Shown piece after piece: positions 11,681 to 62,120 of a stretch of DNA of 64,000 nucleotides. Source of the DNA: Eledone cirrhosa (taxonomy: Eukaryota); NCBI GenBank assembly GCA_964016885.1, contig OZ024753.1, positions 14,198,001 to 14,262,000 of the forward strand. The letters are read 5' to 3'. Below the pieces are notes generated by a model that was not told the origin of the DNA, searched no databases, and worked only from the letters and a program-made list of their open reading frames with translations. The position numbers and the translations under genes were made by a program. How positions within the stretch are numbered: position 1 is the first letter of the stretch; every line of letters begins with the position of its first letter.

Positions 11681-12189
11681 TAAATGATTATGCGTGAATA
11701 TACATCGTATTTAAGTATATATATACATAGATTTATAAATGGGCGTAAGAGAGATCAAGTAACTATAGATATGTTATTCTTTGGGAGGGTCATGTTGCCA
11801 ATAAGAAACACACGCACCAGTTGCTTTCACTTCAATTTATTATAATAAATTTATAATAAATTTATAAATTTATAAATTTCTGGTTGGTTGGTTGGTTCCA
11901 CAACCAGATAGTTGTTTATATATTGTCATAGTTCTTTCGTCACACACTCTGTGACCTCTTCAGTGACTGGGGATTCCTTTCTTTGTTTTTGTGCCTCTCC
12001 TTTGTTCTGTCCTACGCCATTTTGTTTCTCTAGATATGTATAGATATGTATTTTATACATATATTTTAAGGATGTGAAGTGAATTATATTTTTTAAGTAA
12101 AAATTTACAGTATTGTGGCATAATCTATTACTGCATATGGTTAGTAATATAATATTTAAACAGTTATGCAAGTTGAAATATATCGTATA

Positions 12190-14502: not shown

Positions 14503-14549
14503 ACTGCAGACACTAATGTTTCTGGGTGATTACCCTTCATCAGTGCAGT
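14503..14549 (-). ncRNA. Type I hammerhead ribozyme, near-canonical
   Basis: - strand ACTGCA-CTGATGA-A-GGGT(AATC)ACCC-A-GAAACA(TTAG)TGTC^TGCAGT: 6-bp stem I, 4-bp stem II, 3-bp stem III, GUC site. Confidence 0.85.
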
Positions 14550-19879: not shown

Positions 19880-19940
19880 TTACATTTTATTATACATGTT
19901 TCGGATGTACAACAGTACGTCCTCATCAGACAAAATATAA
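19880..19940 (-). ncRNA. Type I hammerhead ribozyme inside the fold-back element 19837-20150
   Basis: - strand TTATATTTTGT-CTGATGA-GGACGTAC(TGTT)GTACATCC-GAAACATGTATA-ATAAAATGTAA. Confidence 0.75.
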
Positions 19941-50046: not shown

Positions 50047-53000
50047 GTAAGTCAGAATTAAAGTTTCTAAATTCTGTGATTCTTTCTCTAACCTGTTTAG
50101 CCATTCTCACCTTAATTACAATTATTGTTGTTTTTAGAACCCATACCAAAAGGACTGAAAGGACTTTACGGCAAAATACGAAATGTGATTGATAAACCTT
50201 TAATTGGTCAAAGTTATTGATCCCTATATGTTTAACCCTTTTTCATTTACATTACTCTATATATACTATAGTATTTTTGTGGTAAAGGCTTTACCTATGA
50301 CACGCAAATTCATGAAGCGTTCCATATTTTTCTAGCAGTGGAGACTTCTGGTGTCCTTGGCCCTAGGGCTACCTCCCTACTCACCACCATAGGCGCTGAG
50401 CTGGCTAGCTGCAGTTGTAAGCCTCGCGAGATGGAATAGCTCTTCCAGCACATCTCCATTACCATCTTCTGGGGGAAACACCTTCTCCATTCTGTCTGCC
50501 GGGGCCCTGGGGCGGCCAGCACATGGGACCCCATTTGCTCATAATACAGAGAGATGGGGAGGGTGAGAGAGATGGAGGCGATGACAGTGGGAGTTCGGCT
50601 CTTCTGTGTTCGGACCTGGTGTGCAGCGACAGTTGTCTGTAAGAAGGTAGTGAAGTACTAAATATGAGAGAGAGTCTTGTAATTATAGAATGTCATTCCA
50701 GATTACACCTCACATAATATCGAATCTATGAGATTTTGATGTTATTTATGTTGAGAACAATACCTTAACATAAGTATGAGTGGCCAGTTACAACCAGTTT
50801 GAACAGAAAGAGGTGAGAGAATTCTGACCGGATACAACCAGTTTAAATGCTAAAGGGTTAACTTGACTAAATGTATTTTTACGTCTATCATATCTCTTAA
50901 TGTGTTCAGTAATTTCTTTGATTACTGGAGATGGCACCAATATTCACACTCAATACTACAGCAGAGTCTGTATATTATGTTTGAGATACGCTGTAATACA
51001 GAAGACCCGACCCCCCACGGATACAAGCTGAAGCATATAGACAATATGCCCCCAAACCCTCCCACTGCAAAGTGGTCGTTGAGGTGCCACGGCAAAAAAG
51101 CACCCAGCCCACACTGTAAAGTGGACATGAAGGTGCCACGGAAAAAAACAGCACCCAGCACTCACTGTAAATGAGGCTGGTGTTAGGAAGGGCATCCAGC
51201 TGTAGAAATCAAGCCGTATGAGCAAGGCATGGTCAGCCGACCGGACACTGCCCACAGCAGGACAACCCGTCTAACCCATGCTAGCGTGGAAGAACGGAGG
51301 TAAAACGGTGATGATGATAACGAAATTTCATTTAAAAATGTTATTGCCTATCAAATGTTATTTGGTGATCAATACTGGAATCCAGTCAATCATATCAATA
51401 AAGACCTGGAGCTAATCATCAATGAAACTTATGTAATGTTCAATATGCAATAAAAACATTTTAAAGTGAAACCTCGTTATCTCATACATAATATATACAC
51501 TCTGCTATAGCATTGAGTGCTCATATTGGGGTCATCTCCAGTAAGCAACAAAATTACTGAATAACCTTCTTTTTTTTTATATATATATATATATATATAT
51601 TGGTTGGATGGCCACTGATGAGGACAAACTTTTTCATATGTAACCCATTTGCAGCGCCGCAGCTCCATTATTATCATATTTACACATATATTTTTTCCTC
51701 CGCTGCCACCAGTCTGTTTCGTTCTTTGTGTCTTTACCCTTTCTAGCAGTCTCTCTCTCTCTGTTAGCCTCTTCCTCACCTTTCACTCACTCACTCTCTG
51801 TCACTACCTCTCCTCCTCCCCTTCCCGTTTGACCTGTCCGTAATCCTTTTCTCGCGGGCACTTGGCCAAGCCGGTATGAATTTTTTTTCTTTCTCTCTCG
51901 TCTGCGACTTCACAGAACTTATGTTTACCGAATTCGCAGACCAGACCCCTTCTTCCTCCCGTTAGACCTGTGCGAAATTCCTTCCTTGCTCACATTTCAA
52001 CCAGGTTTGATGGTCTTTATTCTCTCGTTCACGATTCCACCGAATTTAAATTTATAGAAATCTGGGACTTGTTTCCTTCTTCATCACTTTCTGCTGCTTA
52101 AACCATTTTGTTCGTTTACCCTAGCGTCCCCCTTATTTACGTGTCCCAACGACTTTTTTTTAGCCGTTGCTCGCACCAACCTGAGGTATATGGCCTTTAA
52201 TGCGACGAAATGCCTACGACGGTTGGATGGCCACTGATGAGGACAAACTTTTTCATATATATATATATATATAGTTATGTAATAAACAACATAAGATAAT
52301 TATTTCATTTACCAGTGGTTTCTTGAAAGCAAACAAATCTGCTTTCAGTCATCAGAATGAAAAAATCCTGGTGTTTTTATTGAATCTCTCTCTCTATATA
52401 TATATATATATGCTTAAAGCTTAGTGTTTAGAATGTCAGATTCACGATCGTGAGGTTGTGAGCTTGATTCCTGGACTGGGCTGTGTGTTGTGTCCTTGAG
52501 CAAGACACTTTATTTCACATTGCTCCAGTTCACTCAGCTGTAGAAATGAGTTGTGATATCACTGGTGCCAAGCTGTATTGGGCTTTGCCTTTCCCTTGGG
52601 CAACATCAGTGGTGTGGAGAGGGGAGGCTGGAACATGTGGGTCACTGCTGATCTTCCCCAAACAACCTTGCCCAAACTTGTACCTTTGAAGAGAACTTCC
52701 TAGGTGCAAATCCCCTGGTCATTCATGACCAAAGGGGTCTTTACCTTTTTACCCTAAAAGAAAAACAAAGCTATATATATATATACAGTGTAGGTGATTC
52801 AGTGAATTACCGGTAGTGGTACCAAAACAAGCCCTCGATACTCCGACAGAGTATATATTAAGAACGAGGAAGTTTCATTTACATGATTCTATATTTTTCT
52901 CGCATCGCCAGTCTGAAGAGTAGATCGATAATGGAGTTGGGTCCATAACTTCTACGGATGACCCTGAACCAATCCTCTGTGAAACACATGTAACATGTTG

Positions 53001-56012: not shown

Positions 56013-56382
56013 CTCTCTCTATATATAGATGTATGTATATATATATATATATATTAAGGCACATGGCTTAGTGGTTAGAGCATTGGCTTTGCAATCGAAA
56101 GGTTGTGAATTTACAGTGAGTGTGGGGTGCTTTTTTACCGTGGCACCTCCACGACCACTTTGCAGTGCAATGATATGGACCCCAGTCCCTATCATCTCAT
56201 TTCTACTGCTGAGTAAACTGGAGCAATGTGAAATAAAGTGTCTTGCTCAAGGACACAACACATCACCCGGTCTGAGAATTGCACTCACAACCTTTCGATT
56301 GCAAGCCCAATGCTCTAACCACTAAGCCATGTGCCTCCATATACTAATGAAAACATTTATGTTGTAATCTTTCTTTTCACAG

Positions 56383-56555
56383 TATTGATGAAATGCTGGA
56401 TGAGACTGAACTGACAGAAGAGGAGTTCAAATCCATGGTTGACAGTTGTTATGATTGCTTGACATCTGTTTGTACAACAGACAAAGGAAGGACAACATTG
56501 ATAGACTCCAGATCTGTGTCACATCTGTGTACTTGCTATATACATGCTACTTATG
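56383..56555 (+). CDS. NCDN: Neurochondrin, coding exon 5
   Basis: ttttcacag acceptor; ...FKSMVDSCYDCLTSVCTTDKGRTTLIDSRSVSHLCTCYIHATY resembles NCDN SMIDDTYQCLTAV..TPRG...LI....VSALCQAY; phase 2 in, phase 1 out. Confidence 0.92.
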
Positions 56556-56901
56556 GTATAGTGGGATTTTTTACTTCTATATACATACCTGTGTATGTGT
56601 GTGTATATATACATACCTGTGTATGTGTGTACATACCCGTGTATGTGTGTACTTCTATATACATACCTGTGTATGTGTGTGCATATACATAAGCAGCTTG
56701 GAGCATACAAAAATACAAATGAACACACGTAGATAACCACACACATAAATGCATATTAGTATATATATATAAGGGAGAGAATTGGGAGTGTGTAACACTC
56801 CACTTATCAAATAGGCAGTATATGGTTAGCTCAATGTCAGAGGACAGAGCCGTAATACAATTAACAACAAAGAGTGCTTAGAACATAGGTATATCTTTAA
56901 T

Positions 56902-56947
56902 TGCTAACAGTGTTTCGTCCACACTAGAAGTGGGACTCTTCAGAGCA
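56902..56947 (-). ncRNA. Type I hammerhead ribozyme (antisense copy)
   Basis: Reverse complement of 57470-57515. Confidence 0.8.
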
Positions 56948-57469
56948 TAAAGAGTGAATACATAGTATACAAGCATTGACAAAGCCAAAACAGAAGAATA
57001 TATGTGGGGATACCATAAGTTGGGAGGATAAAAATTAAAAAATAAATAATAAAAAATAAGAAATGTTATCACTCACAGTTGGGCAGGGTTACGTTAACAT
57101 ACAGCTACATACAATTATATGCATAAGCATGAGCACCCGCATGCACCTACACACAAGCACCCGTATGCAACACATACAGTATACACTAATACAAATAACA
57201 TATCATAGACGGATGGGCACAAGTTAAGAGGTAGAGATAGATAAAAAATAGATAAGATGCTTGTGTGTAGGTGCATGCGGGTGCTCATGCTTATGCATAT
57301 AATTGTATGTAGCTGTATGTTAACGTAACCCTGCCCAACTGTGAGTGATAACATTTCTTATTTTTTATTATTTATTTTTTATTTTTTATCCTCCCAACTT
57401 ATGGTATCCCCACATATATTCTTCTGTTTTGGTTTTGTCAATGCTTGTATACTATGTATTCACTCTTTA

Positions 57470-57515
57470 TGCTCTGAAGAGTCCCACTTCTAGTGTGGAC
57501 GAAACACTGTTAGCA
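57470..57515 (+). ncRNA. Type I hammerhead ribozyme, sense to NCDN intron 5
   Basis: TGCT-CTGAAGA-GTCCCAC(TTCTA)GTGTGGAC-GAAAC(ACT)GTT^AGCA. Confidence 0.8.
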
Positions 57516-57911
57516 ATTAAAGATATACCTATGTTCTAAGCGTTCTTTGTTGTTAATTGTATTAGTATATATATGTATTTGTGTATGTATGTCATCATCA
57601 TCATCATCATCATCATCGTTTAACGTCCATCTTCCATGCTAGCATGGGTCTGGACGTGAATTGTTCCACTTGAAGCAAGATTGGTTGTCTTGCTCGGAAC
57701 TGCCTGGCGGGTTTTCTACGGCTGGATGCCCTTCCTAACACCAACCACGTTTACAGTGTGGACTGGGAGGTTTTTACCGTGTTACCTACACGGCCACATT
57801 ACAGCGTGGACTGTGTGTTTTTTTGTTGTGACACCTACACGCCCTCATTTATTTAGGACTGGATGTTGTGGTACCAACATAGCTTACTGTATGTGCGGTA
57901 CAAACATAGCT

Positions 57912-57949
<38 letters not shown>

Positions 57950-58033
57950 AAAGGTAAACAGGAATAACAACACAATCGGTACAGTATATGGAAGGGATAT
58001 ATTAGGTTAACGCTTGATATAGCAGGAAGAGGG

Positions 58034-58069
58034 TCTTAACATTTCGGACGCTAGTCCTTCATCAGAAGA
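58034..58069 (-). ncRNA. Minimal type I hammerhead ribozyme; decayed family copy near 8010-8045
   Basis: - strand TCTT-CTGATGA-A-GGAC(TAGC)GTCC-GAAATGTT^AAGA. Confidence 0.72.
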
Positions 58070-58993
58070 AAGAATGAAAAATAAAATAGATTGAAGGGAC
58101 GGGCGGGATGGAATTGGAAAAGATGTCTTTAGATAAAAATAACAGGTCCATTCATGTTGACATCTCTTGCAAAACTGTTGGTGCTGGTGTTTTATGTATG
58201 ATTTATTTTTTAGAAAAGTGGATGATGGCGCGCGTCTACCTGAAATGAAAAAAAAAAAACGTTTTGTGCACGTGCATAAGCATGTGTGTGTGTGTTATTA
58301 TAGATCCATACAAAGCTAAGAAGAAATGTGTGTGTATATGTGGGTAAAAGAGTGTGTGTGCATATCAAGAGAAAGTGATAGAATCTATTTTTATTTATTT
58401 ATGGCTAAGTGGTTAGAGCATTGGCCTTGCAATCGAAAGGTTGTGAGTTCAATTCTCAGACTGGGTGATGTGTTGTTTCCTTGAGCAAGACACTTTATTT
58501 CACATTGCTCCAGTTTTTCTCAGCTGTAGAAATGAGATGATAGAGACCTGGGTCCCTATCATTCCACTGCAAAGTGGTCGTGGAGGTGCCACGGCAAAAA
58601 ATCACCCAGCACTCACTGTAAAGTGGACGTGGAGGTGCCACGGCAAAAAAGCACCCAGCACTCACTGTAAATGAGGTTGGTGTTAGGAAGGGCATCCAGC
58701 TGTAGAAATCAAGCCAGAATCAGTTCCCGTCCCACCTTTGCAAGCAGGGAAAAAGTGGTCGTAAAATGAAACGATGATGATGATATATATGTGGTTGCGT
58801 GCGTATGTATATATATATACACTAATATGTATTTATGTGTGTGGTTATTTGCGTGTGTTCATTTGTATTTTTACATGCTCCAAGCTGCTTATACTTCCAC
58901 TGGACACATACATGCATGTATCTATTTGTAGTTTTGCGTATGTGATTGTATTCATGTATAACTCTGTGTGTGTGACGTCTCCGTATCATTTCG

Positions 58994-59024
<31 letters not shown>

Positions 59025-59614
59025 TCGCGTATGTATGTTTTTGCAGACTGTGCTATATAAACATATATATGTATATATGCATGCATGTTTGTGTATATAT
59101 ATATATGTATGTGATATATGTGAGTGTGTATATGTATTTATATATGTCTGTATGTCTATACGTTTTTATATGAGTGTGCGTATCTATATATATGTGTATG
59201 TCCGTGTACATGTATGTTTGTGTATATATATATATATATATGTGTATATGCATGTATGTATATCATCATCATCATCATCATCGTTTAACATCCGTGTTCC
59301 ACGCTTGCATGGGTTTGGACGGGGGTTTTCCCACTTGATATATATATATATATATTTTCCTTTTATCTCAATGTGTGTATGTGTGTGTGTATGCATGTAT
59401 GTATATATACATAGATATATTTTTTTCCTTTTATCTGAATGTGTGTATATGTATGTACACGCGTCTTTTTTTATATTGCTATATATTTTTATTTTCTTAT
59501 CTTTTATATATTATTTTTCTTACCCTTCTCTTCTTATTTTCCCCTTATTTTTCCAGCCTCACTTCCAATTTTTAACAGATTTTAAATCTCATTTCATATC
59601 TTTTATCTATAACA

Positions 59615-59683
59615 TCTCTGTCTGATGAACGATCCAGACGTATATTATTATCATCTGTAATCCAGAAACCTTTGGTACTGGAG
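59615..59683 (+). ncRNA. Degenerate type I hammerhead ribozyme
   Basis: CTGATGA at 59622, GAAACC(TTT)GGTA at 59665; weak stem I. Confidence 0.5.
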
Positions 59684-59779
59684 TAGATATATTTTGTGTT
59701 GTTCACTTTCTAATTAAATAGCTCTGTTCTATACATAGAGCACTCTTTTTTTCCTTTGCTTTTCCTTTGGAATTACCTA

Positions 59780-59814
<35 letters not shown>

Positions 59815-59815
<1 letters not shown>

Positions 59816-60166
59816 TAGCAGTGGTACCCGGCGTTGCACGGGATAAGGTACTTTGGAACGCAGGCCGCCAACAGACCTAATCGTGGAAAAACTGCATGCG
59901 TGGACAATATGTAAAGAAAATAAACCGAATACTCTGATGGCTGGATAATCTTTAAGATTTTCCTCGATAAAGCAGGAAAAATGCAGGTTTTCATCTAATG
60001 CGGGCCCTAGGGGATCAAAAAGTTGAAAAGCTGAAACATAAGTAATACACATGTAAAGTTTGAAAACAATCGGTTGGGTACATCTCGAGTTTTAGGGATT
60101 CAAACTCACAGACACACACACACATACACACACAGACTGACATCCTCAGTTTTATATATATATAGA
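59815..60166 (-). mobile_element. Non-autonomous Helitron
   Basis: - strand starts TCTATATA, ends CCCGTGCAACGCCGGG hairpin then CTAG, inserted between A and T with no TSD. Confidence 0.85.
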
Positions 60167-60554
60167 TATATATATAAAAGAAGAGACTGTTTCACATATT
60201 GAAATTTAGTTAATAACTCTACACCTGTTATGCATATTTCAAAGGCATTAAACCTTTAGCATTTAAACCAACTGTATCCAGCCTGAATTCTCTCTTCTGT
60301 TAAAACCTGCTGTAACCGTCCACTTATACCAATGTTAAGCTTTTGTTCTCAAAATAAATAAAATCATCAAAATCTCGTGTCTTCGATATTATGTGAGATA
60401 ATTATATAAAATAAAGCCTTTACTGGACTACGACAATACAACAGTAAATATAGAGTAATTTAAATAGAAAAGGATTAAAACTGTTTTGATGTAATTAAGT
60501 TGAATATGTGAAACTGTCTCTTTTTGTTTTCTTAATATTGTTACTCTGTCTGAT

Positions 60555-60775
60555 ACGATATATGTAATACCTTATGATATATGTAATATCTTGATACCAT
60601 ATATGTAATATCTTATGATACATGATATATGTAATATCTTGATACCATATATGTAATATCTTGATACAATATATGTAATATCTTATGATATATGTAATAT
60701 CTTGATACAATATATGTAATATCTTATGATATATGTAATATCTTGATACCATATATGTAATACCTTATGATACCC
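60555..60775. repeat. About 20-bp minisatellite abutting the NCDN exon 6 acceptor
   Basis: ATATATGTAATATCTT(ATG/GATAC) units. Confidence 0.85.
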
Positions 60776-60794
60776 ATGATGTTTCTCTGTCCAG

Positions 60795-60922
60795 GTAATC
60801 AACGGGCTTTGGCTGTGATACAGCAGATTATCTCAACAAATGGTGCCGGAATTTGGACAAAGAATGTGAAGGGTCTCCAAGAACTATTGGCTTATCTAGG
60901 AGAGAATTTTTTGCAGTCAAAA
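60795..60922 (+). CDS. NCDN: Neurochondrin, coding exon 6
   Basis: ctgtccag acceptor; (G)NQRALAVIQQIISTNGAGIWTKNVKGLQELLAYLGENFLQSK; donor gtaagt, phase 0. Confidence 0.88.
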
Positions 60923-62120
60923 GTAAGTATATCATCATCATTTTACGTCCGCTTTTCCCTGCTTGCAAGGGTTGGACGGGAACTGATTCTGGCTTGATTT
61001 CTACAGCTGGATGCTCTTCCTAACACCAACCTCATTTACAGTGAGTGCTGGGTGCTTTTTTTCCGTGGTGCCTACACGTCCACTTTGCAGTGTGGGCTGG
61101 GTGCTTTTTTTGCCGTGGCACCTCCACGACCACTTTACAGTGGAATGATAGGGACCGCACTCCCTACCATCTCATTTCTACAGCTGAGTAAACTGGAGCA
61201 ATGTGAAATAAAGTGTCTTGCTCAAGGAAACAACACATCACTCGGTCTGAGAATCGAACTCACAACCTTTCGTTTGCAAGCCCAATGCTCTAACCACTAA
61301 ACCATGTGCCTATATATATATAAATATATGTAAGTATGTTTTGAAACAGTGAGCAAGTTTGAAATTAGAAAATAGAAGCTTTCACTGTATTTTTTTGACT
61401 AAAGAAATTTTAACCTGATATATATATATGTGTGTGCACATGCATGATGTGTGTGTGTGTATGCATGAGTGTATGAGTGCAGGCACGCGTGTCAGTGTGT
61501 GTGTACAAGTGTCCGTAAGTATGTGTGTATGTGTGCATGAGTGTTTTTTCCATATTTGTATGGGTTGGCCAGGTCTTCTCCCAAATAATTGTTTCTACTT
61601 TTGGGGCACAAGGCCAGCAATTATCCCAGTGCATTACTGGTACTTTATTTTATCGACCCCCGTAAGGATGAAAGGCAATGTTAACCTCGGCAGGATTTGA
61701 ACTCAGATCATAAAGGGAGGTAACTCAATGCTTCAAAGCATGGCGCCCGACCCTCTACCAATACTTGTTTCTACTTTAGGCACAAGGCCAGCAATTACCC
61801 AGTGCATTACTGGTACTTTATTTTATCGACCCCATAAGGATGAAAGGCAAAGTCAACCTCGGCGGGATTGCCAATCTACCGCCAATCCACCGGTCTTCTC
61901 CCACATAATGTTATGACATTTGTTGTCATCCCTGCTCACCTTTTCATTGGTGTCTACCATTTTAAGAACAACTCTTACTACTTCTTCCTGTCTTTCACCT
62001 ACTCGGCTTCCTTCCAATTTTTATTTTCTTTCTGTCATTCTTTCTTTATTTATTCTTTCCTTCCTTCAGTCCTCCTTTCCTTCCATCACTCATTTATTTA
62101 CTTATTTATTTATTTTGCAG

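What the first reader, a model, noticed from the sequence alone, without database searches (positions are those of the whole stretch)
56750..57564. Sense-strand intronic ribozyme in neurochondrin intron 5 caged by its own antisense copy
Seen: a ~300-bp-arm fold-back about 300 nt after exon 5. The antisense hammerhead copy (56902-56947) would be transcribed first and the intact sense copy (57470-57515) second. Established: coleoid cephalopods have very extensive ADAR A-to-I editing of dsRNA in neural transcripts, and NCDN is a neural gene. Inference: the duplex would block ribozyme folding and so make the insertion tolerable, while editing or unwinding could release it, giving a possible editing-dependent pre-mRNA cleavage switch.
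Basis: partly seen in the sequence, partly recalled or inferred. Interest (0 to 1): 0.72.

Follow-up and report, generated by a model that had tools for sequence, protein, structure and literature searches.

The report
Folded-back Penelope stump in octopod neurochondrin
This mirror-image repeat with a self-cutting RNA motif in an octopod neurochondrin intron is real, but it is one short copy of a young jumping gene of the Penelope type whose copies often land as such mirror pairs, and its ribozyme is predicted to be silent with or without the mirror arm, so it is likely an ordinary insertion and not an editing-controlled switch.

Summary
In detail: 307-nt arms (56853-57159, 57258-57564; 4 mismatches), identical hammerheads at 56902-56947 (-) and 57470-57515 (+), in intron 5 of neurochondrin. 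The interpretation mostly does not. The 0.8-kb insert has a 15-nt target-site duplication and is the ORF-less end of a young Penelope-like element (PLE). Its 46-nt hammerhead has 176 exact copies in the genome, and full-length copies encode RT plus GIY-YIG nuclease with Hydra-clade motifs. Head-to-head pairs are the family's usual footprint (21 divergent, 0 convergent among 76 insertions), so 'antisense first' holds on either strand anywhere. Six such fold-backs lie inside 4 of 11 myosin genes. The ribozyme is the minimal, dimer-type form (helix III probability 0.016 alone). Simulated 50% editing leaves the ribozyme fold at least 41 kcal/mol above the duplex and would usually hit a catalytic A. 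The caging geometry itself is predicted to be real. Editing and cleavage in RNA were not tested. The scan reported the same architecture before, in this and other genomes.

The parts
56383..56555 (+). Neurochondrin coding exon 5
   Evidence: Pfam PF05536 E 5.8e-8; tblastn with Octopus proteins; borders from splice sites and an intronless retrocopy
56754..56768 (.). Left target-site duplication, 15 nt, TA-rich
56769..56852 (-). One-sided PLE 'tail' (84 nt); in full-length copies it leads from the pLTR towards the ORF
56853..57159 (-). Left arm: pLTR part of the 5'-truncated PLE copy, antisense to NCDN
56902..56947 (-). Minimal type I hammerhead, antisense to the NCDN transcript
57160..57257 (-). 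Spacer: further 5' part of the minus-strand copy, not host DNA
   Evidence: collinear with other family copies
57258..57564 (+). Right arm: inverted, shorter, tail-less pLTR copy, sense to NCDN
57470..57515 (+). Minimal type I hammerhead, sense; predicted cut after 57511 (GUU); helix III is a near-palindrome with 2 bp possible in the monomer
   Evidence: 176 exact copies genome-wide
57560..57574 (.). Right target-site duplication (first bases shared with the element end)
58034..58065 (-). Second, unrelated minimal hammerhead in the same intron, antisense, no inverted partner
60795..60923 (+). Neurochondrin coding exon 6

Best explanation
The fold-back is a 5'-truncated, ORF-less insertion of a young Penelope-like retroelement with Hydra-clade motifs, likely made in one integration event that left the element's ribozyme-bearing end plus the usual head-to-head inverted copy, and its hammerhead is predicted to be silent in the neurochondrin pre-mRNA. 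Shown: family membership, target-site duplication, tail, TA-rich target, head-to-head geometry across the family. Inferred: the element's GIY-YIG nuclease nicked a TA-rich site, its RT copied about 0.5 kb from an internal start in the tail, and a second, shorter tail-less copy was laid down inverted from the same template. Predicted: in the pre-mRNA the arms zip into a 307-bp hairpin as they are made; the ribozyme cannot fold, and even if freed it lacks a second sense copy or the element's protein. The hairpin is likely an ordinary ADAR substrate, edited as repeat dsRNA and discarded with the intron, with little or no effect on NCDN output.
For: 1117 first-look candidates, 40 scored at 98-100%. 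176 exact copies of the 46-nt motif; mean pairwise difference 0.5% over 54 copies. Copies L054 and L043 hold an RT (YRDD) plus C-terminal GIY-YIG ORF between direct pLTRs, and the window insert maps only to their pLTR and tail. [quoted passage not shown] Nearly all listed ends run into TA repeats. The first 100 of 176 matches form 76 insertions: 21 divergent pairs, 0 convergent, 3 direct, 52 single; with inexact partners 31 of 76 (hand count). 16 of 18 inverted pairs seen in 34 regions have the tail on one arm only, as here. A second family (8,517 exact copies): 16 divergent, 0 convergent of 82. Both arms carry a rare allele at 57461 (2 of 54 other copies) and the same shortened microsatellite. 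Papers describe this layout as typical (PMC8557442, PMC3846280 passages). Helix III probability 0.016 in the monomer. A single minimal PLE hammerhead showed no cleavage (PMC4209133); the Anolis PLE one needed the element's protein, and no RNA-seq ends were found at its site (PMC11167929). Six fold-back pairs, three with an intact core, in 4 of 11 myosin genes.
Against: No cleavage assay and no RNA data, so silence is predicted only. Helix I here can extend to 10 bp with a bulge, longer than the 4-5 bp of typical minimal forms, which might help activity. Single PLE ends inside genes lean antisense (3 sense of 12-13, one-sided p 0.05-0.07), as expected if sense copies are harmful. Clade placement rests on motifs, not on a tree. 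Whether the insertion is fixed is unknown.
Confidence: 0.9

Rival explanations
1. Passive caging with selection: the insertion arose as above, but sense-strand PLE hammerheads are harmful enough in introns (for example when the element's protein or a second copy activates them) that single sense copies are purged and fold-back copies such as this one are kept more often.
For: Co-transcriptional trapping predicted. Single PLE ends in 458 kb of intragenic DNA: 3 sense to 10 antisense (9 if a duplicate is merged), one-sided p 0.046-0.073; intact cores only 1 to 3, p 0.31. Xenopus retrozymes are reported depleted from introns (bioRxiv 10.64898/2026.07.22.740005, passages).
Against: Pairs are 6 of 18 intragenic insertions, no more than the 21-31 of 76 genome-wide (p 0.6 against 21/76). 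The same lean is seen for broken cores (2 sense, 7 antisense), and antisense bias of intronic retroelements has other known causes (recalled). One intact unpartnered sense motif and one surplus sense copy sit in myosin genes. Introns cut by a slow hammerhead were still spliced (as summarised in PMC2995048, passages).
Confidence: 0.12
2. Editing-dependent cleavage switch: ADAR editing or unwinding opens the hairpin, the sense ribozyme folds and cuts the NCDN pre-mRNA.
For: Intact core and a near-perfect 307-bp duplex in a pre-mRNA. [quoted passage not shown]
Against: The ribozyme fold costs +98.6 kcal/mol against the duplex unedited. With 20-50% of arm adenosines changed it still costs +75 to +95 (A to G model) or +41 to +79 (non-pairing model), 12 runs each; with every upstream-arm A made non-pairing, +39. 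At 50% editing the chance that five core adenosines all escape is 0.03 (arithmetic); that these are needed is established hammerhead knowledge (recalled). A freed monomer lacks a stable helix III. The family is very young and the layout is not special to neural genes.
Confidence: 0.02
3. The hairpin acts as an ADAR landing pad that raises editing in nearby exon 5 (298 nt upstream), like inverted-repeat editing inducers of mammals (recalled); the ribozyme plays no part.
For: Long near-perfect duplex close to an exon.
Against: No editing data. About 20 other inverted-repeat pairs lie in the gene body. The processed retrocopy of exons 1-8 shows no A-to-G excess and none in exon 5, a weak test.
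Confidence: 0.05

Closest known systems
Insertion units of endonuclease-positive Penelope-like elements with an adjacent inverted 5'-truncated pLTR, one-sided tail and TSD (PMC8557442 Fig. 2 legend; Adineta Pen2/Pen2a, PMC3846280; passages read)
   Same: Head-to-head inverted copy, tail on one end, target-site duplication, strong 5' truncation, hammerhead in the pLTR; an asparagine-rich insert in the ORF as in Adineta families.
   Different: Tail about 85 nt instead of 30-40; this copy holds no ORF sequence.
Hydra clade of PLEs, including Hydra-1_Obim of Octopus bimaculoides (PMC8557442 section 11 and supplementary file S1 rows)
   Same: C-terminal GIY-YIG without CCHH, DKT, CxCX5C linker, CxxC and CxH round the conserved E and N, (TA)n targets, hammerhead.
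   Different: RWR rather than RWK; repeat unit 5.3-5.9 kb rather than under 3 kb, from a long microsatellite-rich region after the ORF; this hammerhead string was not found in the one supplementary file held. No tree was built.
Minimal type I hammerheads of metazoan PLEs (Cervera and de la Pena 2014, PMC4209133; parts 1-2 of 4 read)
   Same: Long helix II, short proximal helix I, near-palindromic helix III; that paper also reports dual motifs 100-700 bp apart on opposite strands.
   Different: No unpaired base between core and helix II in the modelled fold; helix I can extend past a bulge; GUU cut site.
Intronic ribozymes with a proposed host role, such as the CPEB3 HDV-like ribozyme (PMC10274809, search listing only) and amniote intronic hammerheads (recalled)
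   Same: Self-cleaving motif on the sense strand of an intron.
   Different: Those are single-copy, conserved and active as monomers (recalled); this is one of hundreds of near-identical young transposon ends, buried in a duplex.

Membership tests
EN+ Penelope-like element | Single ORF with RT and GIY-YIG endonuclease in full-length copies | tested here: met
   L054 and L043 translations and alignment with 10 homologs; both copies have ORF breaks; Pfam gave no hit, so assignment is by motifs
EN+ Penelope-like element | Direct pLTRs round the ORF (partial tandem) | tested here: met
   L043, L054 and a third pair, 5.3-5.9 kb apart
EN+ Penelope-like element | Adjacent inverted 5'-truncated copy, head-to-head | tested here: met
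   21 divergent, 0 convergent of 76 insertions; window copy
EN+ Penelope-like element | One-sided tail and target-site duplication | tested here: met
   84-nt tail, 15-nt TSD; one-sided in 16 of 18 pairs
Hydra clade | DKT motif, CxCX5C linker, no CCHH, CxxC and CxH round E and N | tested here: met
   SDKT, CNCRRASGC, CNLC-TE, N-KSE-SSCPH in L054/L043
Hydra clade | RWK motif | tested here: inconclusive
   RWR here; homologs show RWR or RWK
Hydra clade | Insertion into (TA)n | tested here: met
Hydra clade | Length generally under 3 kb | tested here: not met
   unit 5.3-5.9 kb; the paper words this as a tendency, not a rule
Hydra clade | RT tree places it with Hydra families | not tested
   reference proteins not held as usable sequences
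Minimal type I hammerhead | Core CUGANGA/GAAA/UH with helices I and II | tested here: met
   pair probabilities 0.84-0.98 for proximal helix I and helix II
Minimal type I hammerhead | Unstable palindromic helix III that needs a dimer | tested here: met
   P 0.016 in the monomer; self-duplex of the segment -1.6 kcal/mol
Minimal type I hammerhead | Self-cleavage | not testable with these tools
   needs an assay
Non-LTR retrozyme | Head-to-tail tandem units each with a hammerhead | tested here: not met
   head-to-head pair, not a tandem
Host-domesticated intronic ribozyme | Single copy, conserved across species, active in the pre-mRNA | tested here: not met
   176 exact copies, 0.5% family divergence; cross-species conservation and activity not tested

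The most novel reading that the evidence does not exclude
The head-to-head footprint of Penelope-like elements works as a built-in safety catch: sense hammerheads are purged from octopod introns unless zipped to their own inverted arm, so these fold-backs accumulate in genes as ADAR substrates, and at NCDN the hairpin could be opened and the ribozyme activated (by helicases, editing or the element's protein) to trim expression.
Probability: 0.1. Interest if true: 0.55.

Novelty: new member of a known kind. Interest (0 to 1): 0.12.

Why it matters
As it stands it matters little: it is one more truncated Penelope-type insertion, from a family that may be undescribed. What is of some use is the scale (one sister family has 8,517 exact hammerhead copies; six fold-backs in 398 kb of myosin genes), which suggests such stumps are a common source of long intronic dsRNA in an animal group known for heavy editing. 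If the weak antisense lean proved ribozyme-specific, it would be indirect evidence that minimal PLE hammerheads cut in vivo, an open question in the papers read.

Tried and rejected
Rfam at gathering threshold: no ribozyme hit. Pfam on seven PLE ORFs: no hit; PDB sequence search: nothing meaningful. [quoted passage not shown] Sequencing runs: no RNA holder listed, which says nothing on expression or editing. Host-gene orientation test for this very family: 43 regions of 20 kb round single or direct copies, 338 candidate frames picked from 6,222, scanned with Pfam; one clear multi-exon host gene (PDCD2, copy downstream and antisense), plus weak zinc-finger/PHD fragments and transposon hits; inconclusive. 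Within-insertion versus between-insertion identity gave no signal because the family is too uniform (0.64% vs 0.54%). Retrocopy as a record of editing: no A-to-G excess. Literature: a search for hammerhead + antisense + inverted repeat + ADAR + ribozyme switch found 0 papers; octopus + Penelope + hammerhead found 5, none on this idea by title or abstract start; one search found 1 unrelated paper. The library lacks most subscription papers. Only one supplementary file of PMC8557442 was held; its other files (hammerhead list, alignments) may name this family.

Full report
Observation. The inverted repeat is as described: arms 56853-57159 and 57258-57564, 307 nt each, 98 nt apart, four mismatches, none inside the ribozyme. 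Each arm holds the same type I hammerhead motif, at 57470-57515 on the + strand and 56902-56947 on the - strand. A minimal-hammerhead descriptor finds 4 motifs in 104 kb against a mean of 0.03 in 30 shuffles; Rfam misses it. The host gene is neurochondrin on the + strand, 79-81% identical in exon 5 to Octopus proteins, so the animal is likely an octopod. The repeat lies in intron 5 (56556-60794), 298 nt after the donor. That NCDN is neural is recalled from mammals and was not tested.

What it is. The insert runs from 56769 to about 57562 between 15-nt TA-rich target-site duplications. Read on the - strand, spacer, left arm and an 84-nt tail are one collinear piece of a dispersed repeat; the right arm is a shorter inverted copy without the tail. 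The family is young: 40 scored hits at 98-100% among 1117 candidates, 176 exact copies of the 46-nt motif, 0.5% mean pairwise difference. [quoted passage not shown] The protein has RWR, DKT, a CxCX5C linker, CxxC and CxH round the conserved E and N, and no CCHH; ends run into TA repeats. These match the Hydra clade of Penelope-like elements as defined in PMC8557442 section 11, which lists an Octopus member. An earlier scan note gave me that lead; I checked the motifs but built no tree, and the unit is longer than the usual 3 kb.

The geometry is the family's footprint. The first 100 of the 176 exact matches form 76 insertions: 21 divergent pairs, none convergent, 3 direct, 52 single. Counting inexact partners by hand gives 31 of 76. 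The window's hammerhead spacing (568 nt) lies within the family range of 237-6672 nt. In 16 of 18 inverted pairs seen in 34 upstream regions only one arm has the tail. A second family with 8,517 exact copies gives 16 divergent and no convergent clusters among 82. PMC8557442 and PMC3846280 (passages) describe the inverted 5' copy, the one-sided tail and the head-to-head order as typical, and PMC4209133 (parts 1-2 of 4) already notes dual minimal hammerheads 100-700 bp apart on opposite strands. Both arms share a rare allele and the same shortened microsatellite, consistent with one template in one event.

How it likely behaves. Folding of transcript prefixes pairs 265 of 266 bases of arm 2 by the time the ribozyme is complete, so caging is predicted. 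But the ribozyme is predicted weak on its own: helices I and II form (mostly above 0.84), helix III does not (0.016), and its near-palindromic segment pairs only weakly between two copies. Such motifs showed no cleavage as single copies in PMC4209133. The Anolis PLE hammerhead cut only with the element's protein, and no RNA-seq ends were found at its site (PMC11167929, parts 1-2 of 4). The fold-back has only one sense copy. GUU is a slower cut site than GUC (recalled). Simulated editing does not release it: the ribozyme fold is 98.6 kcal/mol above the duplex unedited, and at least 41 above it at 50% editing in the harshest model (12 runs per condition); five core adenosines all escape with probability 0.03 at that level. 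These are equilibrium models and do not cover helicases. Even a cut need not stop splicing: introns cleaved by a slow hammerhead were spliced, those cut by a fast HDV ribozyme were not (as summarised in PMC2995048, passages).

For this family, Pfam scans round 43 single or direct copies found too few host genes. Instead I took 398 kb between collinear myosin-head exon hits of 11 genes plus the 60-kb NCDN body and looked for PLE hammerheads by descriptor and by homology to 12 probes. Six fold-back pairs lie in 4 of the 11 myosin genes, three with intact cores, so the arrangement is common and not tied to NCDN. One intact sense motif has no partner, and one insertion has two sense copies against one antisense. 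Pairs are 6 of 18 insertions, like the genome-wide share. Against my reading, singles lean antisense: 3 sense to 10 antisense, or 9 if two identical copies are merged (one-sided p 0.046 and 0.073; intact only 1 to 3, p 0.31). The lean also shows in broken copies, and the sample is small, mixed in family and assumed intragenic from exon order. It is a hint only.

Verdict. A real feature and a new member of a known kind: a truncated Penelope-like insertion with its inverted arm. Best explanation 0.9; selective retention of caged copies about 0.1; editing-gated switch about 0.02. Editing, cleavage and fixation were not tested. The scan has described the same architecture several times, twice in this genome; those are unchecked AI notes and not independent support. 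Interest 0.12.

Noticed in passing
L067:1397-2213 (G000:C1 near 157.36 Mb): Intronless retrocopy of NCDN coding exons 1-8, about 97-98% identical, start codon lost, truncated after exon 8; no A-to-G excess against the gene.
   Followed up: partly
window 56110-56330, 58401-58769 and 60938-61305: Inverted copies of a tRNA-derived SINE-like repeat (about 92% identical) flank exon 5 and exon 6; such pairs can favour exon skipping or circular RNA (recalled). About 20 inverted pairs lie in the gene body.
   Followed up: no
window 11925-11963 (-), and genome-wide: Hammerhead of a second, much larger family: 8,517 exact copies of a 34-nt core, 16 of 82 sampled clusters divergent.
   Followed up: partly
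G000:C11 about 46627170-46628110 (L186): Inside a myosin gene: one antisense and two identical sense hammerheads of another family; two sense copies in cis could form the dimer if not paired with the antisense arm. A better candidate for real intronic cleavage than the NCDN copy.
   Followed up: no
G000:C2 about 18981934 (L178): Intact-core sense hammerhead without inverted partner in a 1.4-kb myosin intron.
   Followed up: partly
L054:3233-5743, L043:3775-6288: The PLE ORF has a poly-asparagine insert between RT and nuclease and is followed by about 3 kb of microsatellite-rich sequence before the 3' pLTR, unusually long for Hydra-clade elements.
   Followed up: no
L058:8824-8987 with L159:482-2044: A tail-less family end lies about 1.5 kb beyond the last detected PDCD2 exon, on the opposite strand.
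   Followed up: partly
window 14518-14543, 19898-19929, 52318-52355 (-) and 59622-59669 (+): Looser CUGAUGA...GAAAC motifs that fail the strict descriptor; possibly decayed ends of older PLE families.
   Followed up: no
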